Source of the DNA: an uncultured Saprospirales bacterium
Lineage (GTDB): Bacteria; Bacteroidota; Bacteroidia; Chitinophagales; Saprospiraceae
Direction of reading: 5' to 3'
Length of the DNA: 64,000 nucleotides
Assembly (NCBI GenBank): GCA_937926355.1
Contig: CALAZP010000190.1
Span: forward strand, 40 to 64,039
Shown one piece after another: positions 6,598 through 59,980 of this stretch (positions within the stretch are counted from its first letter, which is position 1; every line of letters begins with the position of its first letter). The notes beneath the pieces were generated by a model. That model was given only the letters and a program-made list of their open reading frames with translations, ran no database searches and was not told the origin of the DNA. The translations under genes were made by a program, and so were the position numbers.

Positions 6598-6598
6598 A

Positions 6599-7375: not shown

Positions 7376-7379
7376 TCTT

Positions 7380-7387
7380 GATATATA
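7380..7387 (+). promoter_or_regulatory. Intergenic octamer GATATATA (candidate promoter element)
   Basis: Context atcttGATATATAtggg; 19 nt upstream of the ATG at 7407. Confidence 0.45.
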
Positions 7388-7406
7388 TGGGGAATTAAAA
7401 TTTCCC

Positions 7407-7778: not shown

Positions 7779-7782
7779 AAAG

Positions 7783-40774: not shown

Positions 40775-41446
40775 TTGAAAACATTAGTCGGGATAGACTT
40801 TTCCCTTAATTCACCAGCATTCTGCATTTTGAGAGACAACCAATTCACTTGGGGATCTCTGACCAGAAGTGATCGTACAGAAGATTCCTTAAAAAAGAAT
40901 TCTAAAAAACCTTACTCCGTCTTATCTGAGGATAAATCCGAAGATTATGTCCTGATGTTTATGTCAAAGGATAAAATGCCAGACGACTACTCCGAGAGAG
41001 AAAGGATAAAAATAGATTATTTCCAAGAACTTGTCGATGTGTTTTGGTCCGAGATTGAGAACCTCTGTGGTGGAGATGACATTGTGGTAGCTATGGAAGG
41101 ACTCAGCTTTTCTTCGAACGGAAATGCTTTAATAGATATTTCCATGGCAACTGCCCTTCTAAGGAAAAAAATAGTGGACCACACAGGAAGTGATAATTTC
41201 TATGTGTATTCTCCCACATCTGTGAAAAAGTTTGCTTACAAGGGAAATGCAAAAAAACACGAACTCTATAATTCTCTAATAGAGCACAGATTTCCCGAAA
41301 CTAATCTGAGGTCATTCACTACTATTTTAGAAGAAAACAAGGATGAATGGATAACTCCTTCTGGCAACGTAAATAAGCCACTTGACGATATTATCGATTC
41401 AACTTGGATATGTTTGTTTTTGCATGACTCAATCAAAGAAGATTAA
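40775..41446 (+). CDS. RuvC-like Holliday junction resolvase (RNase H fold)
   Basis: VGIDFSLNSPA (Asp 1), VVAMEGLSFSS (Glu), SPTSVKKFAYKGNAKKHEL, DDIIDSTWICLFL (C-terminal acidic pair). TTG start is uncertain. Confidence 0.65.
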   Translation: MKTLVGIDFSLNSPAFCILRDNQFTWGSLTRSDRTEDSLKKNSKKPYSVLSEDKSEDYVLMFMSKDKMPDDYSERERIKIDYFQELVDVFWSEIENLCGGDDIVVAMEGLSFSSNGNALIDISMATALLRKKIVDHTGSDNFYVYSPTSVKKFAYKGNAKKHELYNSLIEHRFPETNLRSFTTILEENKDEWITPSGNVNKPLDDIIDSTWICLFLHDSIKED

Positions 41447-42152
41447 TATACTCATTCCTCTTGGCGGTGCTGGAAGGAGATTTACTGAGGTAGGGTATAA
41501 GCAGGTAAAGCCTTTTATAGATGTAAAAGGTGAAACTATGATTAGGTCAGTTATCAAAAACCTGAACCATAGAGATGCACACTTTATATTTGTTGTAAAT
41601 GAGGAGTATATCTCCCCTAAGGAGTTTAAGTCCCATATAGAAGATATGGAGATCTCTTATGATATTTTCTCAACCCCCACCTTAACTCAAGGACCTGCTT
41701 CAACAGTTCTAATTGCCAAAGAATCTATAAACAACGAAGTTCCCCTCATTGTTATAAACTGTGATCAAATTATCCTGGATTTCGATTTGGGTCATTTAAT
41801 GAACTTTGCAAATTCAACGGGTTGTGATGGATTGTTAGGATGCTTCCTTTCTTCCTCTAAAAAGAACAGCTATGTAAAACTTGATCCTAACGGTGAGGTT
41901 TGTGATGTAAAGGAGAAAATAGTTATTTCCAATATAGCTACGAATGGATTGCATTTCTGGAAGCATGGTGAATATTTTGTCTCCAGTGCAGAACAGATGA
42001 TAGAATCTAATGACAGATACAACAACGAATTCTATGTTGCCCCCACCTACAATTATCTCATAAAAGATGGAAAAAAAATATTGCCTTTCTTCTATAATCT
42101 TCACTTTCCAATAGGAACCCCGGAGGACCTGGAAAGATTTTTAACGGTTTAG
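41424..42152 (+). CDS. Sugar/alcohol-phosphate nucleotidyltransferase (NTP_transferase, LicC/GCD1-like)
   Basis: ILIPLGGAGRRFTEVGYKQVKPFIDVKGETMI, the G-x-G-x-R..KP loop. I chose the ATG at 41424 over the listed TTG at 41382. Confidence 0.6.
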   Translation: MTQSKKINILIPLGGAGRRFTEVGYKQVKPFIDVKGETMIRSVIKNLNHRDAHFIFVVNEEYISPKEFKSHIEDMEISYDIFSTPTLTQGPASTVLIAKESINNEVPLIVINCDQIILDFDLGHLMNFANSTGCDGLLGCFLSSSKKNSYVKLDPNGEVCDVKEKIVISNIATNGLHFWKHGEYFVSSAEQMIESNDRYNNEFYVAPTYNYLIKDGKKILPFFYNLHFPIGTPEDLERFLTV

Positions 42153-42441: not shown

Positions 42442-42765
42442 ATGGAGGTTTTTAGAATAGAAGAAATGAAAGATGGGTGGTATGCTGGTAATTTTTCCCC
42501 GGCAGCATACCAAACAGAACAATTTGAGATTTGCTACAAAAAGCATTTTAAGGGTGAAAAATGGCCAAAACATTATCACAAGGAGGCAGACGAAATTAAT
42601 TATCTCAGATCGGGTAAAATGATAATACAAGGCAGGGAGCTGAGTGCTGGAGATATATTCATATTGAGAAAAAACGAAATTGCTGATCCTGTTTTTTTGG
42701 ATGACTGTGAAGTCTTTATTGTAAAATCTCCTTCTGTGCCTGGAGATAAATTTGTGATTGAATGA
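42442..42765 (+). CDS. Cupin-fold protein, 107 aa (NDP-sugar ketoisomerase/epimerase-like or dioxygenase-like)
   Basis: KHYHKEADEINYLRSGKMIIQG..GDIFIL cupin motifs; stop overlaps the next start (ATGA). Confidence 0.5.
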   Translation: MEVFRIEEMKDGWYAGNFSPAAYQTEQFEICYKKHFKGEKWPKHYHKEADEINYLRSGKMIIQGRELSAGDIFILRKNEIADPVFLDDCEVFIVKSPSVPGDKFVIE

Positions 42766-43997
42766 TTAGTATTTTTAAAAATAAGGATGAATTTGATATT
42801 TCTGACTATTTTGTGGTTAGGTATTATTTGGAAGCTAAAACTTCTTTGAGAGATGCCTCTTGGAATTTGGCTATCGGTCAAAGTATCGGTAACCCGACGA
42901 ATCGCAGTGAATGGGAAACTGATGAAATGTTTGAAAATCACAGTTGTTTCATTCTTGCTTCTGAACAAGATCTTAGCCAAAAAAAAGATGGTGAAGTTGA
43001 AATTGCTTTCCCCTTGGCAAACATTAATTTGGAGGAGGATGGGATATCACAGATCCTTTGCCATATAGCCGGTGGACAAGTCGATATAGAAGAGGTGAAG
43101 CAGTGTCATGTTTTGGATATTGTTCTGCCTCAAGAAGTTGAAGACTCTTTTTCTTTGAAACCTGCTTACGGTATTAGTGGATGGAGAAGATTCAATGGAG
43201 TTGATGCCAAGCCTTTTCTAGGGGGAATAGTTAAACCTAAAGTAGGCATGCCCCCGGAGGTATTGCTAGAAGCTGTTAAAGAGATGGTTTATGGAGGGGT
43301 CAACTTTATTAAAGAGGATGAGCTCCTAGCAAACCCTTCTCACTGTCCACTAGAACAAAGAGTTCCTTTAATTTCATCTTGGTTAAAAGAAAATGCTCCG
43401 GATGTGATCTATTGTTTCTGTATCAATGGTGATAGCCCATATGCTTTGGAGAGAGCAAATTTTGTTGCAAATAATGGCGGGAACGGAATCCACATAAATG
43501 TCTGGAGCGGTCTTGGGGTATATCGTGCTATAAGGAAGCAAAACCCTAACATATGGATACATTTTCAAAAAAGTGGTGATAAATTCTTTACTGACAAAAG
43601 GGCACCATTCCACATCTACTGGCCTGTGATTTGTAAAATTGCTGGATGGTCTGGTGTGGATTCTATACATGCTGGAATGATTGGAGGTTATATGAACCAG
43701 GATAATGATGAGATACGGGATACTCTAAAAGTCCTCTGGCATTACAATATAGTTCCAGCTCTCAGTTGTGGAATGCATCCTGGTCTGGTTGATTATATCA
43801 ATGAATCTATACACAGTGTGGATTGGATGGCTAATGTTGGAGGAGCTATGCATGGACATCCAATGGGAACTAGAGCTGGTGGCTTGGCAATGAAGCAAGC
43901 CATCAATAATGATTTCCAAGAAGAGGAATATGTTTGCGCCATAAAGAAATGGGGAAAAAGAACATTTTCTAAAGACCTAGATTACAGGATATTTTAG
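42762..43997 (+). CDS. RuBisCO large-subunit-like protein (form IV-type RLP)
   Basis: GGIVKPKVG, GGVNFIKEDE, NIWIHFQ, GVDSIHAGMIGGY, PALSCGMHPG, NVGGAMHGHPMGTRAGG align to the RbcL catalytic motifs. Confidence 0.85.
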   Translation: MISIFKNKDEFDISDYFVVRYYLEAKTSLRDASWNLAIGQSIGNPTNRSEWETDEMFENHSCFILASEQDLSQKKDGEVEIAFPLANINLEEDGISQILCHIAGGQVDIEEVKQCHVLDIVLPQEVEDSFSLKPAYGISGWRRFNGVDAKPFLGGIVKPKVGMPPEVLLEAVKEMVYGGVNFIKEDELLANPSHCPLEQRVPLISSWLKENAPDVIYCFCINGDSPYALERANFVANNGGNGIHINVWSGLGVYRAIRKQNPNIWIHFQKSGDKFFTDKRAPFHIYWPVICKIAGWSGVDSIHAGMIGGYMNQDNDEIRDTLKVLWHYNIVPALSCGMHPGLVDYINESIHSVDWMANVGGAMHGHPMGTRAGGLAMKQAINNDFQEEEYVCAIKKWGKRTFSKDLDYRIF

Positions 43998-47572: not shown

Positions 47573-48019
47573 ATGTCAGAGCAACAAAAAACCGATTACA
47601 GTAAGCTTTTCGAAAGGGAAAGAGCTGAATGGAAAGAAAAAATCCAAGTGATATCTTTGAGCCTAAAAAACATTAGAACAGTTGCTGAAGCACAAGTGGA
47701 TTTGTTTTCCAATAGACAAATACTATTGGAATACAGCTATAAACTTGCTCAGATTGTTAATAAGCTTGCTACTAAGGAAAGAAAGCTGAGAGCTTCCAAA
47801 CTAAGAGATTATACGGTTAACAGTGATGTGAGATATGGATCGAATGAGACTAAATTACTTATTGAGGGAGATGTTGCCGATGTTGTGGAAAAAATACAAC
47901 TAGTGGAAGGACACCGCAAATTTATTGACCAAACAATCCAGACTGTTGATCACATGCTCTATGGTATTAAGTCAAGGATTGCTCTTGAAGAATATCTTAG
48001 AGCTAGCACGATAGAATAA
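47573..48019 (+). CDS. Possible UvsY-like recombination mediator
   Basis: About 148 aa, helical, directly upstream of the UvsW-like gene; C-terminal LYGIKSRIALEEY resembles the UvsY C-terminal helix. Weak. Confidence 0.4.
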   Translation: MSEQQKTDYSKLFERERAEWKEKIQVISLSLKNIRTVAEAQVDLFSNRQILLEYSYKLAQIVNKLATKERKLRASKLRDYTVNSDVRYGSNETKLLIEGDVADVVEKIQLVEGHRKFIDQTIQTVDHMLYGIKSRIALEEYLRASTIE

Positions 48020-48028
48020 GATAGGTAG

Positions 48029-49552
48029 ATGATCAAATTTAACGTATCTGAGGATCAACAATGGCTAATACTCGCTCAATCAAATGATGAGATAGAAAAA
48101 AGGCAAATTGAGATCTCTTTAACCAAGAAAATACACAATTGGTATTTTCACCCGCTAGTTAAGAAGAAGATCTGGGACGGTAATATTTGCTTTATAGAAA
48201 AAAGAGGGCCATTTTGGAAAGTCCCAGTTGGGCTCTGGAGGGAGGTTCTGGAGATAGGTAAAGAGTTTGGTATAGACATCGACATTGAGGGCCTTGATAA
48301 GATAATACTCAGCGACTTAACTCTGGAAGAGTTCCAAGAATGGGTAGACGGGTTCTTTGCAGATAAGGATATTACTCCCCGTGATTATCAGGTTGAAGCT
48401 GCATGGAAAATCGTAAAGTATAGGTATTCTGTATCTGAGATTGCTACTTCCTCTGGTAAGACACTTATATCCTTTATGATATTTGCTTTTCTTAAGCAGA
48501 GGGGACTGATTAGAAAGTTCTTAATGATTGTACCAAACACTAACCTAGTCTTCCAAGGAAACGGTGACTTTATAGATTATGGCATTGGCGAACTTGGTGT
48601 GAGAATCCAGCAAATTGGAGGTGGTAGTAAGCTTAGAGAAGGGTGTGATCTTATAATAGGTACTTTCCAATCTTTGGTTAAAAAAGACGAGGACTTCTTT
48701 GAGGAGATTGATGCAGTTTTCGTTGATGAAGCACATCACACAAACTCCATGTCAATTAAGAAGATTGTTGCTAAGTGTATGCACAGTAAGTGGAGGTTTG
48801 GTTTAACTGGGACACTTACTAAAAGGGGTTCAGCTGATCATTTAACCATACAGCAATTTTTGGGACCTGTTGTCGTTGAGATCTCACCGGATTTCCTTTT
48901 CAAAAATAAACACGCAACCCCGGTCCACATCAAGGTGGTAAGGATGAATTGGTTAGATGACGAGATCAAGGGGAAACTAGCAGATCTAAAAGCTAATTCA
49001 CAAAGTCTTGAGGGTAATGAACTTTATAACCTTGAGAGGAAACTTGTAATTGAAAGCGAGAAAAGACTTAATTACGTAGTTGAATTCATATCTAAAACAT
49101 CTAAGAATTCCTTGGTCCTATTCCAATCAGTAAAGGACGAGTATGGTAAGCAGATCTGGAATAGACTCAGGGAGGTAACCAACGATAAGGAGGTTTTTTA
49201 TGTCGATGGTGATACAGACGAATCTCTCAGGGAAGAGTATAAATCTAGGATGGCAAACGGTGAGAATAAAATACTGGTTGCGACATATGGCACTTTTTCT
49301 ACGGGTATCTCTATTAACAATCTTCACAACATTTTCTTGGTTGAGTCTTATAAGAGCGAGGTTCTCATTAAGCAGAGCCTCGGTAGGGGAATGAGAAAAA
49401 TGGACGGAAAGGAAAAAGTTAACGTGATTGACTTTGTGGACGATTTTTCCTCCCCAAAATACAAGAACTACCTGCTTAAGCACAGCGAAGCAAGGATTGA
49501 GATCTATAAAAACGAAAAGTTCAAGTATAAGATCTTTAATGTTAATCTCTAA
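48029..49552 (+). CDS. uvsW: SF2 DNA helicase, T4 UvsW-like
   Basis: Motif I TSSGKT, motif II VDEAHH, motif III TGT, motif VI QSLGRGMR; YGTFSTGISINNLHNIFL and C-terminal NYLLKH..KFKYKIFNVNL resemble UvsW. Confidence 0.7.
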   Translation: MIKFNVSEDQQWLILAQSNDEIEKRQIEISLTKKIHNWYFHPLVKKKIWDGNICFIEKRGPFWKVPVGLWREVLEIGKEFGIDIDIEGLDKIILSDLTLEEFQEWVDGFFADKDITPRDYQVEAAWKIVKYRYSVSEIATSSGKTLISFMIFAFLKQRGLIRKFLMIVPNTNLVFQGNGDFIDYGIGELGVRIQQIGGGSKLREGCDLIIGTFQSLVKKDEDFFEEIDAVFVDEAHHTNSMSIKKIVAKCMHSKWRFGLTGTLTKRGSADHLTIQQFLGPVVVEISPDFLFKNKHATPVHIKVVRMNWLDDEIKGKLADLKANSQSLEGNELYNLERKLVIESEKRLNYVVEFISKTSKNSLVLFQSVKDEYGKQIWNRLREVTNDKEVFYVDGDTDESLREEYKSRMANGENKILVATYGTFSTGISINNLHNIFLVESYKSEVLIKQSLGRGMRKMDGKEKVNVIDFVDDFSSPKYKNYLLKHSEARIEIYKNEKFKYKIFNVNL

Positions 49553-49570: not shown

Positions 49571-49588
49571 GGATAAATGAGGAAGAAA

Positions 49589-50077
49589 ATGGATAACATA
49601 AAAGATTTTCAAAGTTTTCTCAACGAGAATATTGAAAGAAGAGAACCATATTCTGCTACTGAGTGGATCAAGCAGAAAAGGAGAAGTATAGAGGCAGAAA
49701 CCGGCGCTGAGAAAATCTACCAAATGACTTATGATGAAGGGGGTGCTTTGCAGAGACTTGTAAAAGGTGCTGTTGAAGGGCTTCGAAACCTGGGTCAGGG
49801 AATTGCTGATCTTTTCGATTCTGGTAAGGCAGCAAGCATGGATATTGAGGGTCTTAGTAAAAATAAAGATCAGGTTTTATCTAGATGGGGAGATTCAATT
49901 AGAGCTTCTGGAAAAAACAAAAGGGGAGAATATGAAACCTTTTACAGAGACGCTATCCGAAAAGGTAAGTCAACTTTCGGTAAAGACTTTGACATCAACA
50001 ACCCACAGGGAAGAGACCAGCAACTTTACAGGGATTATGTCTTTTCTGCCACAGATTATTTTGATTTAGGAAGATGA
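49589..50077 (+). CDS. Hypothetical protein with leader MDNIKDFQSFLNE
   Basis: Start moved to the second ATG: the listed 49577 lies only 6 nt after the octamer, and gaggaag precedes 49589. The stop overlaps the next start (ATGA). Confidence 0.5.
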   Translation: MDNIKDFQSFLNENIERREPYSATEWIKQKRRSIEAETGAEKIYQMTYDEGGALQRLVKGAVEGLRNLGQGIADLFDSGKAASMDIEGLSKNKDQVLSRWGDSIRASGKNKRGEYETFYRDAIRKGKSTFGKDFDINNPQGRDQQLYRDYVFSATDYFDLGR

Positions 50078-50985
50078 GAAACGTGCTAAAATTCGGAGAT
50101 TACGTTTCGCTGTTCGAAGGTGGAGCTGCGATAAAGGAATCTAGGAGGATAAAGGAGAGTGAGGTTCCAAAAACCATGGAGTCCATCAAAGAAATTCTTT
50201 TCCCTCTGCTTGGTGGTGGGGAGGTAGACAAGGAGTATCTTATCATTGGTAGCATTGGTAAAAAGAAAGATCAAAATGACACATCTGGTGATATCGATCT
50301 TGGTATAGATAAAAAGTTCCTCTCTAAGAAGCTGGGTGTTTCTGAAGATGATGTTCTCGGAGCTTTATACAAAAATCTTTCGGAGACCTTACACAACAAA
50401 CTTGGCTTTGTACCAGATATGAAATTGATGAGAGGAATTAACGTTCTCTCGATTGGTTGGCCTATAGAGGGTGACGCTGAAAATGGTATAGTTCAATTAG
50501 ATCTTATTCCAATTTCTGATATGGAATGGGCTAAGTTTATATTCTATTCCCCAGATTACAGAAAGAACGAAAGTAAATACAAGTCGGCTCACAGAAACTG
50601 GCTTTTCCAAGCAATTCTTTCAGCACTAAAGGAAGTAATTTCTAAGGACGAAAATGGTGAACTGGAGGATTTTTATTCTTATGCCCTGAGGTTAAGCGAT
50701 GGGATTTACAAAAATAAGAAGTCTTTTAGGGGTGCTACAAAAAGACTCAAAAGTCCTAAAACGGTTAAAGGAAAAAGCACTTTGGTAACTAGAGATCCAG
50801 ACGAGTTTGTTGAGATGATGTTTGGTGGTGGGATTAAGAAGGAGGATCTAAAATCTTTTGAGGATGCTTGGAAGTTGGTTTCTTCTCCAAACTTTGTCCA
50901 TGCTGACAAGAGGGACGAGATCAGGGACGATCTGGAAAGATATTTAACAAACGGTGGATTTGAAATCCCCACCGAGATCAAATAA
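50074..50985 (+). CDS. Pol-beta-superfamily nucleotidyltransferase-like protein
   Basis: GSIGKKKDQNDTSGDIDLGID fits G[SG]-x(9-13)-D-x-D; third acidic candidate in VQLDLIP. Confidence 0.55.
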   Translation: MRNVLKFGDYVSLFEGGAAIKESRRIKESEVPKTMESIKEILFPLLGGGEVDKEYLIIGSIGKKKDQNDTSGDIDLGIDKKFLSKKLGVSEDDVLGALYKNLSETLHNKLGFVPDMKLMRGINVLSIGWPIEGDAENGIVQLDLIPISDMEWAKFIFYSPDYRKNESKYKSAHRNWLFQAILSALKEVISKDENGELEDFYSYALRLSDGIYKNKKSFRGATKRLKSPKTVKGKSTLVTRDPDEFVEMMFGGGIKKEDLKSFEDAWKLVSSPNFVHADKRDEIRDDLERYLTNGGFEIPTEIK

Positions 50986-51441: not shown

Positions 51442-53355
51442 ATGGCTGGGATAAATCACTTATATGACATTTACAACAAAAAAGGATCTGACTTTGTCAA
51501 TCAGCTTTTTAATCGTTATGTAACCATCAACGAAAAGATGGATGGCTCGGCTTTTTCTTTTGAAAGAGATAAGGAATCTGGAAATTTCCGGTTTTATAGG
51601 AGGGATCAAAGAAATCCAATAACTTTAGTGGACAGGACTCTCATGAAATATTACGAGAAGCCAATCCAGTATATCGAATCTCTTCCTCCAAACATACTTG
51701 AAAAAATACCTAGAGGATTGAGATTCGGGCTGGAATATTTTTCAAACACTAAACCTGTAGAGATCTCCTACGATAGATTGCCAAAGAATAACTTGATTCT
51801 TTCTTATATCCACAAGATGGGTACTGGAGGTAAGATAGAAAGCACTATTCAGGATAAGGGGGAATTAGACAATTGGGCAGATCTGATTGGGGTTGAAAGA
51901 CCACCAATTGTTTTTCAGGGAGTTCTAGACGAGGACCAGAAATCTGAACTTATGGAGTTTTTGAACACCCCGTTCAAGGATCTTGTCGAAAGATTCAAAA
52001 CTCAATCTTTTGTTAGGTTTGTTATTAAGACCCTGAACCCAGAGTTAACCAAAACTGCTCTCAACGATGACCTAGATAAGGACGTCGAGGGAATAGTTTT
52101 TAGGTTTGGCGAGCCCGATGGTGATAGTGATACCGTTTTAGCTAAAATGGTAGATCCAATATTCACCGAGATTGCTAAGCAAAAGTTTGCTGACAAAAAG
52201 AGCAAAAAGCCTTCTGATTTTCTAGGTATTACGCTGCTCGACGTAATGAATTTCATTTTGGAGAAAGATCTTTCCGAATTTGAAGTTGAAGGCGAGTCTG
52301 AGGACGAGAGATACATTTCCTTTATAGGAGACGTTTTTGTCAAGTTCCTTGATGAATACGAGGAAAAGTATAAGGGTACTGATTTCGAAGAACCAGATTA
52401 TCTAAAAAGAGAAGAATTTAGGTTAAACAAGGAAAAAATTAAGGATAGAAGAGTTCTTAAGTATGTTGAAAAAGACGACTCGTTCGAATCTCTATTCAAA
52501 CTCATTCTTAATTCCTTTAGAAAAATAAAAACCAGAGCTGGTGGAATAATCACAGCTGGTATGAAGGACCAAATGAATCTTTTGATCAAAGACATTAAGG
52601 ACTACATCAAAAAACCAGAGAAGAACGTAAACGAATCTAGGTTTATTAGCTTCGGTGAATTTAGGAAGGAGAACACCCCCTCTGTAGAATACCTACAGGA
52701 GGAGGATGATTCGGATACAAGTGATGATCCTTTTTTCTCATACCGTGAATTCATCAGCAAACTTGAGACTATTGATAACGAGGAGTTGCCAAACGAGGTA
52801 GAGATTCTTAAAGAGGACGATACCGAGGAAAGAAAGCCGGTAAATGTCATAATGGGTAGATTTCAGCCCTTCCACCAGGGGCACCTCAAGATGGCAAAGG
52901 ATCTTATGGAGAAAAACGATTTGCCTTCATTCGTTGTTGTAGTTTATCCTGGCCACAACAAGTCTGGAAAATCCCCATTTGATGAAGAATCTATCAAAAG
53001 ATACATGAATGCGATAGTTGCCAACAATGAAGAGATAGAAGGCTATGTTCTTGCTACTCGGGGACTTCTTGGTTCTGCCATTGCAAGACTAATAGATATG
53101 GGATATGATCCTAAGTTAATTGGTGCAGGCCCCGACCGAATAGATGACTACTCTAAGCAGATAGACTATGTTAAGATGTCTGATATAAAAGACAAAATAA
53201 GCGATGACCTAAGCATAGTAGAAACCCCAAGAGTAACGAGCGGTACCGAAGTTAGGCAAGCTATGAAAGACCAAGATTTTGCCAAGTTTAAAAAGATGGT
53301 TCCAAAAGAGGTCTCAAACCTCTATAATGACCTCATTACAAGCGTCAGGGACTGA
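51442..53355 (+). CDS. Fusion protein: N-terminal covalent nucleotidyltransferase (RNA/DNA ligase-like) domain plus C-terminal NMN adenylyltransferase-like (HxGH cytidylyltransferase fold) domain
   Basis: Ligase motifs: I INEKMDGS, III RFGLEYF, IV VEGIVFRF, V VLAKMVDP. C-terminal: IMGRFQPFHQGH and TSGTEVRQAM. Confidence 0.65.
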   Translation: MAGINHLYDIYNKKGSDFVNQLFNRYVTINEKMDGSAFSFERDKESGNFRFYRRDQRNPITLVDRTLMKYYEKPIQYIESLPPNILEKIPRGLRFGLEYFSNTKPVEISYDRLPKNNLILSYIHKMGTGGKIESTIQDKGELDNWADLIGVERPPIVFQGVLDEDQKSELMEFLNTPFKDLVERFKTQSFVRFVIKTLNPELTKTALNDDLDKDVEGIVFRFGEPDGDSDTVLAKMVDPIFTEIAKQKFADKKSKKPSDFLGITLLDVMNFILEKDLSEFEVEGESEDERYISFIGDVFVKFLDEYEEKYKGTDFEEPDYLKREEFRLNKEKIKDRRVLKYVEKDDSFESLFKLILNSFRKIKTRAGGIITAGMKDQMNLLIKDIKDYIKKPEKNVNESRFISFGEFRKENTPSVEYLQEEDDSDTSDDPFFSYREFISKLETIDNEELPNEVEILKEDDTEERKPVNVIMGRFQPFHQGHLKMAKDLMEKNDLPSFVVVVYPGHNKSGKSPFDEESIKRYMNAIVANNEEIEGYVLATRGLLGSAIARLIDMGYDPKLIGAGPDRIDDYSKQIDYVKMSDIKDKISDDLSIVETPRVTSGTEVRQAMKDQDFAKFKKMVPKEVSNLYNDLITSVRD

Positions 53356-53380: not shown

Positions 53381-53920
53381 GTGGATAAAAGAATACAGAG
53401 CTTCTCCGACTTCCTAAAGGCTTCTTCGATTAACGAGGGAGATGGATTTGGGACCTATCCTTTCTTATTAGTAAAGGATGGTGACATTTACAACTACCTT
53501 TTCCAATTAGAACTTGAGAATGGTTCTCAGAAAGGATTTATGTTGGTGGTTGGCAAATATTCTCAGTATGAGACAATGGAGGGACCTAAAAACTCTTACG
53601 CAGTTCTAAATATAAACGAGATAGCTCCTGAAATTATAGAAGATATTGCTATCAAGAAATCCGAAATACCCGATCTAAATGATGCTAAGTTTAATCTTAA
53701 GGACAATGTCCTAAGCAGATTTTTAGAGCAGATATCTAAGGCTTTATTAAATTATCTTGAGAAAAATCCAAAAGTAATTCGTATATTTGACGAAATGCAG
53801 GGTAATATGGATATCGAAAACTATGAAGAAATGGTAAAATCAGTTTTACTTTCCTTCTTAGGTCCAGAATGGGCAATCCAGGAAGGATCTCACAAGGGAA
53901 CATTCATAATCAGTAGATAA
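53381..53920 (+). CDS. Hypothetical protein with leader (M)DKRIQSFSDFLKASSINE
   Basis: GTG start; N-terminus paralogous to the leaders at 49589 and 58507. Confidence 0.5.
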   Translation: MDKRIQSFSDFLKASSINEGDGFGTYPFLLVKDGDIYNYLFQLELENGSQKGFMLVVGKYSQYETMEGPKNSYAVLNINEIAPEIIEDIAIKKSEIPDLNDAKFNLKDNVLSRFLEQISKALLNYLEKNPKVIRIFDEMQGNMDIENYEEMVKSVLLSFLGPEWAIQEGSHKGTFIISR

Positions 53921-54270: not shown

Positions 54271-54477
54271 ATGGGATATTACGTAGCAAAAGTTAGTTTT
54301 GAATCAACTGAAACCAAAAGAAATGGTGATCCAGTAATTCACAAATCAGAATTTCTAGTTGCAGCTGAGTCTGTGCTAGAGGTTGAGACGAAAGTAGCGG
54401 AGTTCCTTGAGGGAACCACTGGATTCTTTGAAACCACACAGATTTCAAAATCCAAAATCGAAGCAGTTATAGAATAA
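54271..54477 (+). CDS. Hypothetical protein, 68 aa
   Basis: ORF after a promoter-like octamer. Confidence 0.45.
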   Translation: MGYYVAKVSFESTETKRNGDPVIHKSEFLVAAESVLEVETKVAEFLEGTTGFFETTQISKSKIEAVIE

Positions 54478-54773
54478 TGGCAAATACCGGCAGCTATATT
54501 CCCCCACAATCCCCCATTGCTATCCAACCTGGAGACAAGGGATTTGAGATAGTTGGGAAGAGTTACAATAGATGGCTTTGGACATTCCCCGATTGGAAGA
54601 AGGGAAAGAAGAAGATAATTAATCCTGCAACTAACTGGGAATTGAACGCAAAGCCAATGAGTCCTGCAGAGATAAAGAAAAAGATGAAAGGTCTTTATCT
54701 ACAGGAGGATAACGATAAAAAAGTAGAGGAGAGCATGAAAATCATTACTCCCTACGAAAAATATAAGATTTGA
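54477..54773 (+). CDS. Hypothetical protein, 98 aa
   Basis: ORF; TAATG overlap with the upstream gene. Confidence 0.45.
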   Translation: MANTGSYIPPQSPIAIQPGDKGFEIVGKSYNRWLWTFPDWKKGKKKIINPATNWELNAKPMSPAEIKKKMKGLYLQEDNDKKVEESMKIITPYEKYKI

Positions 54774-55876: not shown

Positions 55877-56371
55877 ATGGATTCAATGTACTATCCAACT
55901 GGAAATTCAACTAACGGACGAACGCTAGTTTGTTTGTGCTGCGAGGATGTTCCGGTAATGGAAGACCAGGAAACCCCAGATGCTATGGAACTTAAGATCA
56001 AGGAATGGTTGGACGAAAACGACTATTGCGTTGAAAAATGGCAAATGGACGAAGAAATGAAAAATTGCGGATGTGAAGGGTATGAACTCCAAGAAATGGA
56101 TGGAGGAGCACCTGCACCAGCTGGAGATGGTGGTGGAGCATTCGCTACATTAGGAACTACCCAGGGGATGGGAAATGTTGAAGCACCTTCGTCTGGCGGT
56201 ACTAATGCAGATTTTTATAGCGGAGCAGTTGGATCCGGCGATAAGTTCCCTTCACTTACGGTAGGAACCCCGGCTGCTAAAGGGGGTTCTGGTAAAAAGA
56301 AGAAAAAGAAAGATAAGGTTGTTAAAAGCTTCGAGGATTTCAAGAAAATGATGAAGTCTTTGCAGAAATAA
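55877..56371 (+). CDS. Hypothetical protein with Cys pairs, a Gly/Ala-rich linker and a poly-Lys tract
   Basis: CLCCED, CGCEGY, GGAPAPAGDGGGA, GKKKKKKDK; C-terminal KSFEDFKKMM. Confidence 0.45.
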   Translation: MDSMYYPTGNSTNGRTLVCLCCEDVPVMEDQETPDAMELKIKEWLDENDYCVEKWQMDEEMKNCGCEGYELQEMDGGAPAPAGDGGGAFATLGTTQGMGNVEAPSSGGTNADFYSGAVGSGDKFPSLTVGTPAAKGGSGKKKKKKDKVVKSFEDFKKMMKSLQK

Positions 56372-58180: not shown

Positions 58181-58507
58181 TTATTTTTCTTCGGAGGTTT
58201 TGGCTGTTGGTGAAAGTTCCTCGTGTATTCTCTTTTTCAAATACTTGATAACATCCTTAGGTGCCTCTCCATTTTTAACCATATTCGTGAATTCCTCCTC
58301 CTCTGCTAACGTATCTAAATAGTTGTAAAGATCCGTACTTTGAAACATTGAATCCACTACCTGTGGGGTTTGTGTATAAGCGGGCCTATAGTTTCTTGAG
58401 TTAACATTATCCTTGTACCATTCACCAGGAACAACCACACTACCAGGTGCTGCTGAAATGTAATATTCATTAAGGAAATTCTCGAAACTTTTGATCCTGC
58501 TATCCAT
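58181..58507 (-). CDS. Hypothetical protein with leader MDSRIKSFENFLNE
   Basis: Start moved to Met13 of the listed ORF, because the octamer (58518-58525) lies inside the longer version. Leader is paralogous to 49589 and 53381. Confidence 0.5.
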   Translation of the reverse strand: MDSRIKSFENFLNEYYISAAPGSVVVPGEWYKDNVNSRNYRPAYTQTPQVVDSMFQSTDLYNYLDTLAEEEEFTNMVKNGEAPKDVIKYLKKRIHEELSPTAKTSEEK

Positions 58508-58567: not shown

Positions 58568-59980
58568 ATGATAGTAGACATTGAAAACAAAGGGACTTAT
58601 TTAAAAGTATCGTCTTTCTCCGAGGAGGGCGATTTAATTTTTGTAGATGTTCCTGTCCCAGAGGAGGAAAGGTTTATCTGGGAAAAATGCTCACCTTCGG
58701 ATAGAAGAAGGGCATCTGATTGGGAGTCTTGGGATGGAATGCCGGTTAGAAAAGTGAAGACCCAGAAGTATGACAAATACCGAATGGTTCAAATCTTGGA
58801 AGAAGCAGACCCAGAGCTTACTAAATCTCTTTGGGATTTCCAAATCCCGAAAAAGTACTTTGTGGATATTGAGGTTGAGATGACCGATGAGATGGGAGAT
58901 TCCCTAGATACCTCTAATGCCAAGAACAAGGTGCTTTCTATCGGTATTGCAACAGATAGGTGTAAATCAATAATTCTAGGGCTTGATCCACTTTCAGCCG
59001 AGGAGCAAGCGGACATTTACAAAAAGACCAACGAGTATCTTGAACCGATGGGTGATGAATGGTCTTTTAAATATCACCAGTTTGAATCTGAGTATGATAT
59101 GCTTTATACCTTCTTTAAGAAGTTGGCCCCTAAAATGCCATTGATAACTGGGTGGAACTGGTTTGGGTATGACTGGCCATATTTGGTGAATAGAGCTAAG
59201 AGACTTGGTATCGATCCAAAGGTAATTTCACCAGCTAACTGGCTTATTGGAAAGAACAATCTTCCTATGCATTTGCTAATGGTCGATTATCTTGAGATCT
59301 ATAAAAAATGGGATCGGACAATTAAGATCAAGGAGAGCAATAGATTAGACTATGTTGCAGAGAAGGCTACAGGGTTAAAGAAGATTGTATATGACGGATC
59401 TCTAAGGGACCTCTACCAGTCTGATTTCCCTAAGTTTATCCTTTACAACGTAATTGACTGTGCCCTGGTTCACTATATAGATGTTAAGTTAAAAACCCTC
59501 CTAACTTATTTCAAGATAGCTAATTTAAACAGGGTTGAAATCAGTAGGGCGCTTTCACCCGTATGGGCAACAGAGGTCATGATGCTCAAAAAGTTTTTGG
59601 AGAGGAATCAGGTCTTTGTCAATGAGAGGAAAGAAGAAAGCCATGTCAAATTCATTGGTGGGTATGTCAAAGAGCCTATCAAGGGACTTCACGAATGGGT
59701 TGCTTGTTATGACTTTGCTTCCCTATACCCAAACACCATTGTGCAATGGGGTATTTCTCCTGAGGTTTATAAAGGTAAGCTAGGAAGGGATATATCTGAA
59801 GCCAAAGAGGGATGGGTGAAAACATCCTCTACCGCACTCTTTGGTGGAGACGACGAAAGTCCAATTCTGAAGACAATAATTAAGGACTTATACTCAAAGA
59901 GGAAAGCAACAAAAAAGAGAATGCTTGAGTTGCAGATAGAAATTGACGGGTTGGAGAAACAATTGAAAAAATTAACATAG
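58568..59980 (+). CDS. gp43: Family-B DNA polymerase, N-terminal part (exonuclease domain, motif A and first fingers helix), T4 gp43-like; split gene
   Basis: ExoI FVDIEVE, ExoII ITGWNWFGYDWPYLVNRA, ExoIII YNVIDCALV, motif A YDFASLYPNTI. Stop about 50 aa later; no KxxxNSxYG or YGDTDS motif. Confidence 0.85.
   Translation: MIVDIENKGTYLKVSSFSEEGDLIFVDVPVPEEERFIWEKCSPSDRRRASDWESWDGMPVRKVKTQKYDKYRMVQILEEADPELTKSLWDFQIPKKYFVDIEVEMTDEMGDSLDTSNAKNKVLSIGIATDRCKSIILGLDPLSAEEQADIYKKTNEYLEPMGDEWSFKYHQFESEYDMLYTFFKKLAPKMPLITGWNWFGYDWPYLVNRAKRLGIDPKVISPANWLIGKNNLPMHLLMVDYLEIYKKWDRTIKIKESNRLDYVAEKATGLKKIVYDGSLRDLYQSDFPKFILYNVIDCALVHYIDVKLKTLLTYFKIANLNRVEISRALSPVWATEVMMLKKFLERNQVFVNERKEESHVKFIGGYVKEPIKGLHEWVACYDFASLYPNTIVQWGISPEVYKGKLGRDISEAKEGWVKTSSTALFGGDDESPILKTIIKDLYSKRKATKKRMLELQIEIDGLEKQLKKLT

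What the first reader, a model, noticed from the sequence alone, without database searches (positions are those of the whole stretch)
51442..53355. Unusual fusion of a ligase-type covalent nucleotidyltransferase with an NMN adenylyltransferase-like domain
Residues about 1-250 carry ligase motifs I, III, IV and V (EKMDGS, RFGLEYF, EGIVFRF, LAKMVDP). Residues about 470-637 carry GRFQPFHQGH and SGTEVRQ, the HxGH/ISxT signature of archaeal/NadM-type NMNAT. An acidic linker joins them. The linker contains ESRFISFGEFRKE (52633-52671) and FFSYREFISKLE, which resemble the N-terminal leader family. This suggests the NMNAT part was once a separate leader-bearing gene, or that the protein is processed there. 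Possible roles: RNA (tRNA) repair coupled to local nucleotide-cofactor synthesis; NAD+ re-synthesis to counter NAD-depleting defences, which are known to be countered by phage NMNAT-containing pathways; or NAD-linked RNA chemistry.
Basis: partly seen in the sequence, partly recalled or inferred. Interest (0 to 1): 0.7.

Follow-up and report, generated by a model that had tools for sequence, protein, structure and literature searches.

The report
Phage RNA-ligase fused to adenylyltransferase-like domain
A giant-phage gene really does join an RNA-ligase-type enzyme to a second nucleotide-transferring enzyme. The fusion is conserved in hundreds of related phages, but calling the second half an NAD-making enzyme (NMNAT) is not supported.

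Summary
ORF 51442-53355 (+) encodes one 637-aa protein, and every quoted motif is at the stated place.

- **N-terminal part (residues 1-393):** it folds like T4 RNA ligase 2. Ligase motifs I, III, IV and V line up in order, and Lys32 is the predicted nucleophile.
- **C-terminal part (residues 462-637):** it is a HIGH-signature (HxGH...SxTxxR) nucleotidyltransferase.
- **Fusion:** it is not an artefact. It recurs in more than 200 independent assemblies and in 837 clusters at 50% identity. In this lineage both active sites are almost invariant.

The NMNAT label holds only at superfamily and fold level:
- NMNAT-specific models score far below their cut-offs.
- PPAT and NadD fit equally well.
- The nicotinamide-binding motif does not align.
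- Relatives match phage "cytidyltransferase" families rather than the phage NMNAT family.
- No Nampt is found in the window or in the one complete related genome, which also has its own NadM-like gene.

In Xanthomonas phages the two halves are adjacent separate genes, and a Pol-beta-type nucleotidyltransferase lies just upstream in most relatives. I therefore read this as a two-headed break-repair enzyme whose second substrate is unknown. The acidic linker carries invariant motifs that match a leader family resembling the T4 capsid-targeting sequence.

The parts
51442..53355 (+). Whole ORF: 637-aa fusion protein (the stop codon is included in the coordinates)
   Evidence: One search lists the ORF. 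Searches show full-length relatives in hundreds of independent assemblies.
51442..52176 (+). Ligase-type adenylyltransferase domain, residues 1 to about 245. Motif I is E31-K32-M-D34-G35-S36 (K32 codon at 51535-51537). Motif III is FGLE98Y. Motif IV is E216-G217-IVFR221. Motif V is AK235MVDP.
   Evidence: Pfam RNA_ligase covers residues 26-235. Foldseek matches T4 Rnl2 entries 2hvr, 2hvq and 1s68. hhalign gives a colinear motif alignment to Rnl2. These residues are invariant in the lineage.
52177..52620 (+). All-helical second domain of the ligase module, residues about 246-393. Its position corresponds to the Rnl2 C-terminal domain.
   Evidence: The AlphaFold secondary structure shows helices 239-390 with pLDDT of about 76-96. 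Foldseek alignments to full-length Rnl2 span 332-398 columns. Conserved residues are Y291, N329, R360-K361 and N379.
52621..52824 (+). Acidic disordered linker, residues 394-461
   Evidence: pLDDT is below 50 for residues 394-398 and 412-461. Composition is 21 D+E against 7 K+R.
52630..52671 (+). Linker motif 1, NESRFISFGEFRKE (residues 397-410). The core is [ILF]-x-S-F-x-[DE]-F. This motif forms the C-terminal tail of stand-alone ligase modules.
   Evidence: E398, F404 and F407 are invariant in 178 lineage sequences. The motif is present across the wider family. Stand-alone N-modules end with it.
52690..52704 (+). Conserved Y-[ILV]-x-E-E (residues 417-421). It fits the L/I-x-E form of a T4-type prohead-protease site. 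This is an inference only.
   Evidence: Y417 is present in 174/178, position 418 is I/L/V in 167/178, E420 in 133/178 and E421 in 175/178. The gp21 cleavage rule is taken from PMC9026906.
52729..52776 (+). Linker motif 2, PFFSYREFISKLETID (residues 430-445). The core Y-x-E-F-I is the same as in the leader family and in the T4 capsid-targeting sequence.
   Evidence: F437 is present in 178/178, I438 in 175, L441 in 172 and E442 in 177.
52825..53352 (+). HIGH-signature nucleotidyltransferase domain, residues 462-637. GRFQPFH478QGH481 lies at nt 52855-52884. S600-G-T602-E-V-R605 lies at nt 53239-53256.
   Evidence: Pfam CTP_transf_like is above its cut-off. TIGR00125 is above its cut-off. PHROGs 3041 and 395 match. 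Foldseek TM-scores to NMNAT, NadD and PPAT are 0.65-0.71. The residues are invariant in the lineage.
50074..50985 (+). Conserved upstream neighbour: a 303-aa Pol-beta-fold nucleotidyltransferase with an N-terminal leader that ends in the invariant E15-G16-G17
   Evidence: The alignment shows invariant GS...SGD.D. The AlphaFold model has pLDDT 89.3. Foldseek matches Pol beta/mu, TdT, Cid1, CutA and OAS1. The gene lies upstream of the fusion in 73 of 80 related loci.

Best explanation
The gene encodes a two-headed enzyme for nucleic-acid break repair, most likely RNA repair, in a jumbo phage.

**Head 1 (residues 1-393)** is an Rnl2-type polynucleotide ligase. By inference from the family mechanism it works in three steps:
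1. ATP adenylylates Lys32.
2. AMP passes to a 5'-phosphate end.
3. The 3'-OH attacks and seals the break.

The helical second domain and a conserved basic/polar surface (R65, K/R221, K235, R360-K361) would hold the nucleic acid.

**Head 2 (residues 462-637)** is a HIGH-motif (HxGH...SxTxxR) nucleotidyltransferase. It should use ATP or another NTP to put a nucleotidyl group on a phosphate-bearing acceptor and release PPi. Its tie to the ligase is shown by fusion here and by overlapping adjacent genes in Xanthomonas phages. It belongs to a phage-specific 'cytidyltransferase-like' clade, and its acceptor is not established. NMN (giving NAD+) is the candidate nearest to solved relatives, but it fails the family-specific tests.

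**Partner and tether.** The protein probably works with the Pol-beta-type nucleotidyltransferase encoded just upstream, which would rebuild ends before sealing. The heads are tethered by an acidic disordered linker. The linker's invariant aromatic motifs match the leader peptides of neighbouring genes and probably dock the protein on a common partner.

**Shown:** the architecture, the folds, intact catalytic residues, conservation and gene linkage. **Inferred:** the substrates, the order of steps and the role of the motifs.
For: **Ligase head**
- Foldseek matches T4 Rnl2 (2hvr_A E 2.9e-7, 2hvq, 1s68) and viral RNA ligases.
- Pfam RNA_ligase hits 28 of 61 relatives, best E 1.6e-7.
- hhalign pairs E31-K32 with Rnl2 E34-K35, E98 with E99, E216-G217 with E204-G205, and K235 with K225. 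The Rnl2 sequence was verified as 100% identical to T4 rnlB.

**HIGH head**
- Supported.
- It sits in a phage clade: PHROG 395 is hit by 37/61 relatives and PHROG 3041 by 27/61.

**Both sites under selection in this lineage**
- K32 177/177, E98, E216 and K235 178/178, H478 174/177, H481 175/177, R605 173/176.

**Functional linkage**
- The fusion is conserved down to about 26% identity.
- In phage BUDD, a stand-alone HIGH nucleotidyltransferase (family HMM E 1e-29) overlaps the end of a 286-aa gene. That gene's family aligns colinearly with the ligase domain (WKLDG, EGVV, YKI; hhalign E 0.0097).

**Pol-beta nucleotidyltransferase neighbour**
- Supported. One also lies next to the stand-alone ligase module in megaphage LR756502.
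- The logic of a Pol-beta nucleotidyltransferase (RlaP) working with an RNA ligase is described in PMC7824862.

**RNA repair in a relative**
- LR756500.1 encodes KptA/Tpt1 (E 5.5e-57).
- Its DNA ligase is a separate LigA.

**Linker motifs:** invariant.
Against: - No end-healing gene (Pnkp, 2H phosphoesterase), tRNA gene or KptA was found in the 64-kb window.
- The gene sits in a T4-like DNA replication and recombination block: gp32, a UvsY-like protein, a helicase and PolB. A DNA substrate therefore cannot be excluded.
- Pfam RNA_ligase is below its gathering score for this protein. The profile search of PDB sequences found no ligase. The hhalign E-values are marginal.
- The neighbour is not detectably RlaP: PF10127 was not hit. 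Its Foldseek E-values are weak, best 6e-3.
- Synteny within one lineage may reflect common descent rather than function.
- In the wider family, 22% of clusters lack the nucleophilic Lys and about 45% of HIGH domains have degenerate motifs. Catalysis is therefore not universally required.
Confidence: 0.5

Rival explanations
1. The C-terminal domain is a true NMN (or NaMN) adenylyltransferase that makes NAD+ next to the ligase. It would either counter NAD-depleting defences or recycle NMN for NAD-consuming phage enzymes.
For: - GRFQPFHxGH and SGTEVR are the archaeal NMNAT signatures, and they are invariant in this lineage.
- The best Foldseek and sequence-profile PDB hits are archaeal NMNATs: 1m8g E 2.7e-7 and MJ0541 E 2.3e-6.
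- The related genome LR756500.1 encodes two NAD consumers. One is a LigA-type DNA ligase, which releases NMN. The other is KptA.
Against: - NMNAT equivalog HMMs score 25-30 bits against cut-offs of 127-181.
- PPAT (E 9e-6, TM 0.67-0.71) and NadD are equally close.
- Family position 478 is T in 46, H in 33 and N in 18 clusters.
- The archaeal nicotinamide-binding segment aligns to non-matching, poorly conserved residues.
- Only 2 of 61 relatives hit the phage NMNAT PHROG.
- No Nampt is present in the window or in LR756500.1. The query was validated on 2,017 phage records. Known NadM phages always carry NadV (PMC9503650).
- LR756500.1 has a separate NadM-like nucleotidyltransferase-Nudix gene.
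- Nothing in NAD synthesis explains the repeated linkage to a ligase-like protein.
Confidence: 0.22
2. The HIGH domain acts on the ligation intermediate itself. It would adenylylate a polynucleotide 5'-phosphate to give A(5')pp(5')N-RNA/DNA, which is the same linkage as in NAD+. Or it would remove that AMP by pyrophosphorolysis. The ligase module could then seal without its own lysyl-AMP step, or be rescued after abortive ligation.
For: - Fusion or adjacency with a ligase-like protein recurs in distant phages.
- 31 of 141 family clusters have replaced the nucleophilic Lys. Of these, 11 keep E31 (11/11), D34 (9/11), G35, R65, K/R221 and K235, and also keep an intact HIGH motif.
- Family-wide, only one of the two motif V lysines is present: the Rnl2 K227 equivalent is V or I.
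- Rnl2 K227Q is impaired in enzyme adenylylation but still seals pre-adenylylated ends (PMC3149579).
- The isolated Rnl2 adenylyltransferase domain performs step 3 (PMC3884662).
Against: - K32 is invariant in the window's own lineage, so self-adenylylation is probably kept there.
- 15 Lys-less clusters also have degenerate HIGH motifs and 5 have no HIGH domain.
- Lys loss and HIGH decay are not clearly correlated (counts).
- I know of no HIGH-family enzyme that uses a polynucleotide end.
- Residue calls in distant members depend on HMM alignments.
Confidence: 0.12
3. The protein is a capsid-packaged (ejected) protein. The linker motifs would be internal copies of a T4-type capsid-targeting sequence, and a prohead protease would cut the linker and release the two enzymes inside the head. 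This concerns delivery, so it can be true together with any catalytic model.
For: - Window leaders have the form [FY]xxF[LI]xE.
- In LR756500.1, 26 of 620 ORFs start MK[YF]I..Y.[ED]F[LIV].E. About 4-5 are expected, and the maximum in 200 shuffles was 9.
- The spacing is that of the T4 IPIII targeting sequence: targeting residues 4 and 7, processing residues 8 and 10, and a cut after L/I-x-E (PMC9026906).
- A gp21-like protease is present in LR756500.1 (E 5.6e-9).
- E-G-G is invariant after the leader of the 303-aa neighbour.
- Linker motif 2 has the core Y-x-E-F-I, and a conserved Y-[ILV]-x-E-E lies between the motifs.
Against: - The fusion protein has no leader at its own N-terminus.
- The known T4 targeting sequences are N-terminal.
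- Motif 1 sits at the C-terminus of stand-alone ligase modules, and C-terminal copies occur in two other window proteins. This fits a general docking peptide, for example for a sliding clamp or SSB, as well as it fits capsid targeting.
- Motif 2 is followed by K-L-E, not [LI]-x-E.
- No virion data exist.
Confidence: 0.2
4. The ligase head is a replisome-associated DNA (or RNA-primer/DNA) nick sealer. The aromatic motifs would be clamp- or SSB-binding peptides.
For: - The gene lies between gp32, a UvsY-like protein and a helicase on one side and PolB on the other, in all 80 related loci.
- The motifs occur at N-termini, at C-termini and in linkers, as hub-binding peptides do.
- From my own knowledge, the motifs resemble T4 clamp-binding tails of the SLDFLF type.
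Against: - The fold and HMM affinities are to RNA ligases, not DNA ligases: 28 of 61 relatives hit RNA_ligase and 1 of 61 hits DNA_ligase_A_M.
- LR756500.1 has its own LigA, while its copy of this protein lacks the Lys.
- This model gives no role to the HIGH domain.
Confidence: 0.1
5. The apparent fusion is an artefact (frameshift or misassembly), or the protein is a non-catalytic relic.
For: - In the wider family many clusters have lost catalytic residues in one or both heads.
Against: - The same 635-640-aa reading frame occurs in more than 200 independent assemblies from several sources.
- All catalytic residues of both heads are essentially invariant in 178 lineage sequences.
Confidence: 0.02

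Closest known systems
T4 RNA ligase 2 (Rnl2, gp24.1) and the PF09414 RNA_ligase family
   Same: - It has the covalent nucleotidyltransferase fold, with motifs I (E-K-x-[DH]-G), III, IV (E-G) and V aligned in order.
- An all-helical second domain follows.
- The T4 Rnl2 entries are the only ligases in the listed top 50 PDB Foldseek matches.
   Different: - Identity is about 14%, and Pfam scores below its gathering cut-off.
- Only one motif V lysine is present.
- Family-specific invariant residues are D64-R65 and Y71-E72.
- The helical domain is larger.
- A conserved aromatic tail motif follows the module.
- It is fused to a HIGH nucleotidyltransferase.
- The nucleophile is lost in 22% of family clusters.
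Archaeal/NadM-type NMN adenylyltransferase (MJ0541, MTH150; 1f9a, 1ej2)
   Same: - It shares the Rossmann-like HIGH fold, with TM-scores of 0.66-0.71.
- It shares GRFQPFHxGH and SGTExR, and a P-F loop after strand 2.
   Different: - It scores 25-30 bits against cut-offs of 127-181.
- The archaeal nicotinamide-binding segment does not align to matching residues.
- Most relatives have T or N in place of the first His.
- There is no Nampt partner.
- It is fused to a ligase rather than to a Nudix or kinase domain.
Phosphopantetheine adenylyltransferase (CoaD/PPAT)
   Same: - The fit in sequence profile is equal (E 9e-6), and so is the fit in fold (TM 0.67-0.71).
- The family consensus FTNGH matches the PPAT T-x-G-H motif.
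- G-x-x-R...D-Y-x-x-Q aligns with the PPAT RGLR...DFEYExQ segment.
   Different: - Nothing in the context points to a CoA pathway.
- This lineage has HxGH.
- Acceptor-side residues are not conserved.
Phage 'cytidyltransferase' families PHROG 395 and 3041 (cyanophage 'cytitidyltransferase', Xanthomonas phage BUDD USV40836.1, Stenotrophomonas phages)
   Same: - These are the best family-level matches: E 1.4e-13 and 5.2e-10 for this protein, and 37/61 and 27/61 across relatives.
- The BUDD protein scores E 1e-29 with the family HMM.
   Different: - Those proteins are stand-alone or carry other partner domains.
- Depositors' names for them disagree: nucleotidyl transferase, NMNAT, cytidyltransferase, even ADP-ribosyltransferase. 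I found no report of a tested function.
RlaP (RNA-ligase-associated Pol-beta nucleotidyltransferase) plus RNA ligase repair cassettes of jumbo phages
   Same: - A Pol-beta-fold nucleotidyltransferase is encoded next to an RNA-ligase-type gene, which is the arrangement described in PMC7824862.
   Different: - The neighbour gives no PF10127 (RlaP) hit.
- It carries an N-terminal leader.
- The cassette adds a HIGH nucleotidyltransferase, which that review's RNA-repair section does not mention.
T4 internal-protein capsid-targeting sequence (IPIII residues 1-10) and gp21 L/I-x-E processing
   Same: - The leaders and linker motif 2 have aromatic residues three apart, followed by I or L.
- The N-terminal leaders then have x-E (PMC9026906).
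   Different: - In this protein the motifs are internal, and in stand-alone ligase modules they are C-terminal.
- Cleavage and packaging are untested.

Membership tests
Covalent nucleotidyltransferase (ATP-dependent polynucleotide ligase) superfamily | Motif I KxDG with the nucleophilic lysine | tested here: met
   The motif is E31-K32-M-D34-G35 and aligns to Rnl2 E34-K35-I-H-G. K32 is present in 177/177 lineage sequences. In the wider family K is present in only 110 of 141 clusters.
Covalent nucleotidyltransferase (ATP-dependent polynucleotide ligase) superfamily | Colinear motifs III, IV and V | tested here: met
   E98, E216-G217 and K235 align to Rnl2 E99, E204-G205 and K225. The second motif V lysine (Rnl2 K227) is V or I here.
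Covalent nucleotidyltransferase (ATP-dependent polynucleotide ligase) superfamily | Formation of a covalent lysyl-AMP adduct and strand sealing | not testable with these tools
   This needs an [alpha-32P]ATP labelling assay and a nick-sealing assay.
Rnl2-type RNA ligase (Pfam PF09414) | Score at or above the Pfam gathering cut-off | tested here: not met
   The score is 23.9 bits against a 27-bit cut-off, E 5e-5. 28 of 61 relatives match at E<=0.01, best 1.6e-7.
Rnl2-type RNA ligase (Pfam PF09414) | Rnl2-like fold made of a nucleotidyltransferase domain plus a helical C-terminal domain | tested here: met
   Foldseek gives 2hvr_A E 2.9e-7, 2hvq E 5.9e-7 and 1s68 E 1.2e-5, with probability 1.0. 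TM-scores are low (0.39-0.51 on the target). Homology of the helical domain itself is not resolved.
NMN adenylyltransferase (archaeal / NadM / NadR type) | HxGH and ISxTxxR nucleotide-binding signatures | tested here: met
   H478-Q-G-H481 and S600-G-T-E-V-R605 are present and invariant in the lineage. These signatures are shared by the whole HIGH superfamily.
NMN adenylyltransferase (archaeal / NadM / NadR type) | Score at or above the curated cut-offs of NMNAT family models | tested here: not met
   NF002243 scores 30 against 127. TIGR01527 scores 25.4 against 181.2. The NadM and NadR models score 16-18 against 341-409. The phage NMNAT PHROG 3462 is hit by 2 of 61 relatives.
NMN adenylyltransferase (archaeal / NadM / NadR type) | Nicotinamide-binding residues (the archaeal D-I-E-x-N-x-x-W segment, recalled from my own knowledge of the 1ej2/1f9a structures) | tested here: inconclusive
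   In the profile alignment to 1f9a the segment IKDIEFNSIW pairs with non-matching, poorly conserved residues. The alignment in this region is of low confidence, and the model coordinates could not be inspected.
NMN adenylyltransferase (archaeal / NadM / NadR type) | Co-occurrence with Nampt/NadV, stated for all NadM phages in PMC9503650 | tested here: not met
   There is no Nampt in the window or in complete genome LR756500.1 by tblastn at E<=0.01. The query finds NadV in 2,017 phage records. The window phage's full genome was not available.
HIGH / cytidylyltransferase-like nucleotidyltransferase superfamily | Family model above its cut-off, and the fold | tested here: met
   PF01467 scores 25.5 against 21. 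TIGR00125 scores 28.1 against 27.7. Foldseek matches NMNAT, NadD, PPAT, FAD synthetase and TmcAL.
RlaP (PF10127), tested on the upstream neighbour 50074-50985 | Match to PF10127, and the Pol-beta fold | tested here: not met
   There is no Pfam hit at E<=1. The Pol-beta fold is supported only weakly, best Foldseek E 6e-3 at probability 0.99, together with the invariant GS...SGD.D.
T4-type capsid-targeting sequence, tested on the linker motifs | N-terminal position, aromatic residues at i and i+3, then [LI]-x-E, cleaved by a gp21-type protease | tested here: inconclusive
   The pattern is met by the N-terminal leaders of neighbouring genes and by 26 ORFs of LR756500.1. The linker copies are internal, and only motif 2 keeps Y-x-E-F-I. 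A gp21-like gene was found in LR756500.1 only.

The most novel reading that the evidence does not exclude
The HIGH domain is not an NMNAT. It would be a polynucleotide 5'-phosphate adenylyltransferase, or in reverse a pyrophosphorolytic 5'-deadenylase. It would make or remove the A(5')pp(5')N ligation intermediate, which is chemically the same linkage as in NAD+. The attached ligase module could then seal breaks without a lysyl-AMP step. This would explain two facts. Some orthologues have replaced only the nucleophilic Lys while keeping the rest of the site and an intact HIGH motif. The second motif V lysine is missing across the whole family. The enzyme pair might also be delivered from the capsid through the leader-like motifs.
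Probability: 0.12. Interest if true: 0.85.

Novelty: new variant of a known kind. Interest (0 to 1): 0.55.

Why it matters
- **Function of an orphan family.** HIGH-motif "cytidyltransferase" genes are widespread in large phages, including marine cyanophages, and I found no report of a tested function. Their fusion to, or adjacency with, a ligase-type enzyme gives a concrete functional link that can be tested.
- **Ligation chemistry.** If the second head acts on nucleic-acid 5' ends, this would be a new route to ligation and a new activity for the HIGH superfamily.
- **NAD supply.** If it makes NAD+, it would couple cofactor supply to repair in phages that lack Nampt.
- **Annotation.** The family is large: 837 clusters at 50% identity, on phage contigs up to 434 kb. 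It is currently named inconsistently, for example "phosphopantetheine adenylyltransferase" or "cytidyltransferase-like".
- **Targeting signal.** The linker motifs tie this protein to a leader family that may mark dozens of capsid-targeted proteins in huge phages.

Tried and rejected
**Searches that found nothing**
- The profile of 61 relatives against PDB sequences found only HIGH nucleotidyltransferases and no ligase.
- Pfam, PHROG and NCBIfam scans of the neighbours (166, 150 and 179 aa), the L001 421-aa KLDG protein, BUDD genes 333 and 286, and the roughly 386-aa C-terminal extension of the longer forms gave no informative hit.
- There are no tRNA genes in the window.
- T4 Pnkp, T4 Rnl2 and T4 gp45 queries found nothing in LR756500.1 or in the window at BLAST level.
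- BLASTP between the BUDD cassette proteins and the window proteins was not significant. Only profile comparisons reached E of about 0.01-0.02.

**Tool runs that failed**
- hhalign in global mode gave a meaningless alignment. Local mode was used instead.
- The search for related loci with the diverse alignment A1 failed. It worked with the narrower alignment A3.

**Leader motif test**
- A loose leader regex was not enriched at N-termini: 4 observed against 2.5 expected.
- I replaced it with a stricter pattern, which was defined after looking at the data.
- I then tested a T4-type pattern on an independent genome.

**Literature**
- No paper in the held library describes a ligase-HIGH nucleotidyltransferase fusion.
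- Burroughs and Aravind 2016 is not held.

**Readings rejected or weakened**
- Frameshift artefact: rejected.
- Replicative DNA ligase: weakened, because the relative has its own LigA.
- RlaP membership of the neighbour: not met.

Full report
**1. The observation**

ORF 51442..53355 (+) encodes 637 aa without interruption. All quoted motifs are present at these residues:
- EKMDGS 31-36
- RFGLEYF 94-100
- EGIVFRF 216-222
- LAKMVDP 233-239
- GRFQPFHQGH 472-481
- SGTEVRQ 600-606
- ESRFISFGEFRKE 398-410 (nt 52633-52671)
- FFSYREFISKLE 431-442

The linker (residues 394-461) has 21 acidic and 7 basic residues.

**2. The fusion is real and conserved**

- A search of 5.8 billion proteins returned 671 hits. 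The best 120 are nearly all 634-644 aa at 66-97% identity, come from several independent sources, and sit on contigs up to 179 kb.
- An exhaustive search of 50%-identity representatives gave 837 clusters at E<=1e-3 and 199 at E<=1e-30. The two-domain architecture persists down to about 26% identity. Stand-alone N-modules of about 400 aa and longer forms of 1000-1290 aa also occur.
- IMG/VR holds at least 248 related loci. The best 80 lie on contigs up to 434 kb, so this is a jumbo-phage lineage.
- Among deposited phage genomes, only uncultured huge phages match. LR756500.1 (462 kb) has a full-length copy at 31.6% identity. The 630-735 kb genomes have the N-module alone.
- In 178 unique lineage sequences the catalytic residues of both halves are essentially invariant. 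K32 is present in 177/177. D34, G35, E98, E216, G217 and K235 are present in 178/178. H478 is present in 174/177, H481 in 175/177 and R605 in 173/176.
- A frameshift or a dead relic is therefore excluded for this lineage.

**3. The N-terminal module**

- Pfam RNA_ligase (PF09414) covers residues 26-235 at E 5e-5. That is 23.9 bits, just below the 27-bit cut-off. It matches 28 of 61 relatives, best E 1.6e-7. DNA_ligase_A_M matches one relative.
- The AlphaFold model, built on a 61-sequence alignment, has mean pLDDT 84.8. It shows a mixed alpha/beta domain to about residue 245 and a helical domain to about residue 393.
- The only ligases in the listed top 50 PDB Foldseek matches are the T4 Rnl2 entries: 2hvr_A E 2.9e-7, 2hvq, 2hvr_B and 1s68. 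Many viral RNA ligases match in BFVD.
- I verified my copy of the Rnl2 sequence as 100% identical to T4 rnlB.
- A profile alignment is colinear over 302 columns (E 0.0075). It pairs E31-K32 with E34-K35, E98 with E99, E216-G217 with E204-G205, and K235 with K225. The Rnl2 K227 position is V or I.
- Rnl2 K227Q is impaired in enzyme adenylylation but still joins pre-adenylylated ends (PMC3149579). The isolated Rnl2 adenylyltransferase domain performs steps 1 and 3, while the C-domain is needed for step 2 (PMC3884662).

**4. The C-terminal module**

- Pfam CTP_transf_like and NCBIfam TIGR00125 pass their cut-offs.
- The family profile hits archaeal NMNAT MJ0541 (E 2.3e-6), PPAT (9.4e-6), NadM (9.8e-5) and NadD (1e-4) almost equally.
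- Foldseek TM-scores are 0.66-0.71 for NMNAT, NadD and PPAT alike.
- NMNAT equivalog models score 25-30 bits against cut-offs of 127-181.
- In the wider family the first His of HxGH is T in 46, H in 33 and N in 18 clusters. G-x-x-R...D-Y-x-x-Q aligns with the PPAT RGLR...DFEYExQ segment.
- The segment that binds nicotinamide in archaeal NMNAT (my own knowledge of those structures) pairs with non-matching, variable residues.
- Among 61 relatives, 37 hit PHROG 395 and 27 hit PHROG 3041, both annotated "cytidyltransferase". Only 2 hit the phage NMNAT PHROG.
- The domain is therefore an intact HIGH nucleotidyltransferase of a phage-specific clade. NMNAT is a resemblance, not a membership.

**5. 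NAD context**

- The window ORFs I scanned contain no Nampt, Nudix, Pnkp or KptA. There are no tRNA genes.
- I assembled the complete LR756500.1 genome from ten fetched pieces.
- A human NAMPT query that detects NadV in 2,017 phage records finds nothing in LR756500.1.
- That genome does encode:
  - KptA/Tpt1 (E 5.5e-57);
  - a LigA-type NAD-dependent DNA ligase (E 2e-37 for its N-terminal half);
  - a separate 303-aa HIGH nucleotidyltransferase with a Nudix-like box, whose best matches are NadM models (E 1.5e-8, far below their cut-offs).
- In surveyed phages, every genome with NadM also has NadV (PMC9503650).
- The relative thus has NAD-consuming enzymes and its own NadM-like gene. This makes a second, ligase-fused NMNAT less likely, though it does not exclude one.

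**6. Gene linkage**

- In 73 of 80 related loci a 303-aa gene lies just upstream of the fusion. The surrounding block is gp32, helicase, 166-aa gene, 303-aa gene, (150-aa gene), fusion, 179-aa gene, Hc1, then PolB further on.
- The 303-aa protein has invariant GS...SGD.D. Its model is confident (pLDDT 89.3). Foldseek matches are weak but consistent, to Pol beta/mu, TdT, Cid1, CutA and OAS1 (best E 6e-3). It gives no RlaP (PF10127) hit.
- In megaphage LR756502 a Pol-beta-like gene (MTPAP-like palm, E 0.007) lies beside the stand-alone N-module.
- In Xanthomonas phage BUDD a stand-alone HIGH nucleotidyltransferase (family HMM E 1e-29) overlaps the end of a 286-aa gene. That gene's small family has invariant WKLDGFFLRFGK. 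It aligns colinearly with the ligase domain through motifs I, III, IV and V (hhalign E 0.0097). A Pol-beta-like 336-aa gene lies two genes upstream (hhalign E 0.017).
- The two halves are thus separate neighbours in one group of phages and fused in another, which argues for a shared pathway.
- The jumbo-phage review describes a Pol-beta nucleotidyltransferase (RlaP) working with RNA ligases, but no HIGH partner (PMC7824862).
- No paper in the held library describes this fusion.

**7. The wider family is plastic**

- Of 141 clusters with a residue at position 32, 31 lack Lys; most have Q or N.
- Eleven of these keep E31 (11/11), D34 (9/11), G35, R65, K/R221 and K235, together with an intact HIGH motif.
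- Fifteen have decayed motif I (E31 in 8/15) and degenerate HIGH motifs. Five have no HIGH domain.
- About 45% of HIGH domains lack one or more of the signature residues scored (positions 478, 481 and 605). These calls depend on HMM alignments.
- The N-module evolves more slowly than the C-module: 51-100% against 28-100% identity across loci.

**8. The linker**

- It is disordered in the model, yet it carries three conserved elements in 178 sequences:
  - N-E398-S-x-F-x-S-F404-x-[DE]-F407-K-K, with E398, F404 and F407 invariant;
  - Y417-[ILV]-x-E-E421;
  - P-F-[FY]-S-[YF]-x-E-F437-I438-x-x-L441-E442-T-I-D.
- The first element is present across the family. It forms the extreme C-terminus of stand-alone N-modules, for example ...TLSFTEFLKQNG and ...FQTFENFRLI.
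- The same core occurs in the window at four N-termini (genes at 49577, 50074, 53381 and 58181, the last on the minus strand) and near two C-termini (genes 54477-54773 and 55877-56371). A strict pattern, defined after looking at the data, gives 10 hits against 2.4 in shuffles. Terminal hits number 5 against 0.2.
- As an independent test, 26 of 620 ORFs in LR756500.1 start MK[YF]I..Y.[ED]F[LIV].E. About 4-5 are expected, and the maximum in 200 shuffles was 9.
- This has the architecture of the T4 IPIII capsid-targeting sequence. That sequence has targeting residues 4 and 7 and processing residues 8 and 10, and gp21 cuts after L/I-x-E (PMC9026906). The T4 sequence itself is from my memory.
- LR756500.1 has a gp21-like gene.
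- Whether the internal copies target the protein to the capsid, mark a cleavage site, or dock it on another hub such as a clamp or SSB is open.

**9. Verdict**

- The finding is a genuine, widely conserved domain fusion, and I found no description of it in the held literature.
- The best reading is a break-repair enzyme with an Rnl2-type sealing head and an intact HIGH nucleotidyltransferase head that serves the same pathway.
- The acceptor of the second head is unknown. NMNAT remains possible (about 0.2) but fails the specific tests.
- The most novel reading still open is that the second head makes or removes the 5'-adenylylated ligation intermediate.

Noticed in passing
window 49577-50077, 50074-50985, 53381-53920 (GTG start), 58181-58507 (minus strand); locus LR756500.1 (L087-L096): A family of N-terminal leaders. 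In the window they read ..IKDFQSFLNE, ..KFGDYVSLFE|GG, ..IQSFSDFLKASSINE|G and ..IKSFENFLNE. In the 462-kb phage LR756500.1, 26 of 620 ORFs start MK[YF]I..Y.[ED]F[LIV].E, against about 4-5 expected. The spacing matches the T4 capsid-targeting sequence followed by an L/I-x-E protease site, and LR756500.1 has a gp21-like gene. This may mark dozens of capsid-packaged proteins in huge phages.
   Followed up: partly
window 55877-56371 and 54477-54773: The same aromatic motif occurs near the C-termini of two other small proteins: ...KKKKKKDKVVKSFEDFKKMMKSLQK and ...IITPYEKYKI. This suggests a docking peptide that can be used at either end of a protein.
   Followed up: no
window 42762-43997 (with 41424-42152): A phage-encoded RuBisCO large-chain-like protein (Pfam PF00016 E 7.6e-31, plus the N-terminal domain). 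A sugar-phosphate nucleotidyltransferase gene (NTP_transferase, E 3e-13) lies about 0.6 kb upstream, with two small ORFs between.
   Followed up: no
proteins P0090, P0104, P0114, P0117; loci L058, L059, L071 at about 12100-13000: Some relatives extend the fusion by about 390 aa to roughly 1020 aa. The extension contains a G-[KR]-G-E...D...E-I-K pattern that is reminiscent of a PD-(D/E)xK nuclease. No PHROG family matched it, and Pfam/NCBIfam scans of full-length P0090 reported no separate domain for it.
   Followed up: partly
L006 (Xanthomonas phage BUDD, record positions 6049-9398): A four-gene run: a Pol-beta-like 336-aa gene, a 333-aa gene of unknown function, a ligase-like 286-aa gene (WKLDG...EGVV...YKI) and a stand-alone 162-aa HIGH nucleotidyltransferase. 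This looks like a split version of the window's cassette in a cultured phage.
   Followed up: partly
LR756500.1 356128-359240 (minus strand); 81900-82481; 47607-48536: The LigA-type NAD-dependent DNA ligase is interrupted by an inserted 340-aa ORF (357320-358339). The genome also has a KptA/Tpt1 RNA 2'-phosphotransferase and a NadM-like nucleotidyltransferase-Nudix gene, but no Nampt.
   Followed up: partly
L001 4704-5969 (LR756500.1): A 421-aa leader-bearing protein directly upstream of the fusion orthologue. It carries SEKLDGYA...SEGIVFVY...YKLTG, which looks like a second, very divergent ligase-type enzyme. The fusion orthologue beside it has lost its Lys (ENLDGS).
   Followed up: no
window 58568-59980: The family B DNA polymerase ORF is only 470 aa. 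It covers the exonuclease domain and the first part of the polymerase domain (PF00136 positions 16-140 of 453), so the polymerase appears to be split. The next genes are a dUTPase/MazG-like gene and an RNR small subunit.
   Followed up: no
window 4044-5210 and 19470-20033 (minus strand): An S1 RNA-binding-domain protein (E 6.6e-16) and a PhoH-like ATPase (E 4e-48) lie among the structural and baseplate genes.
   Followed up: no
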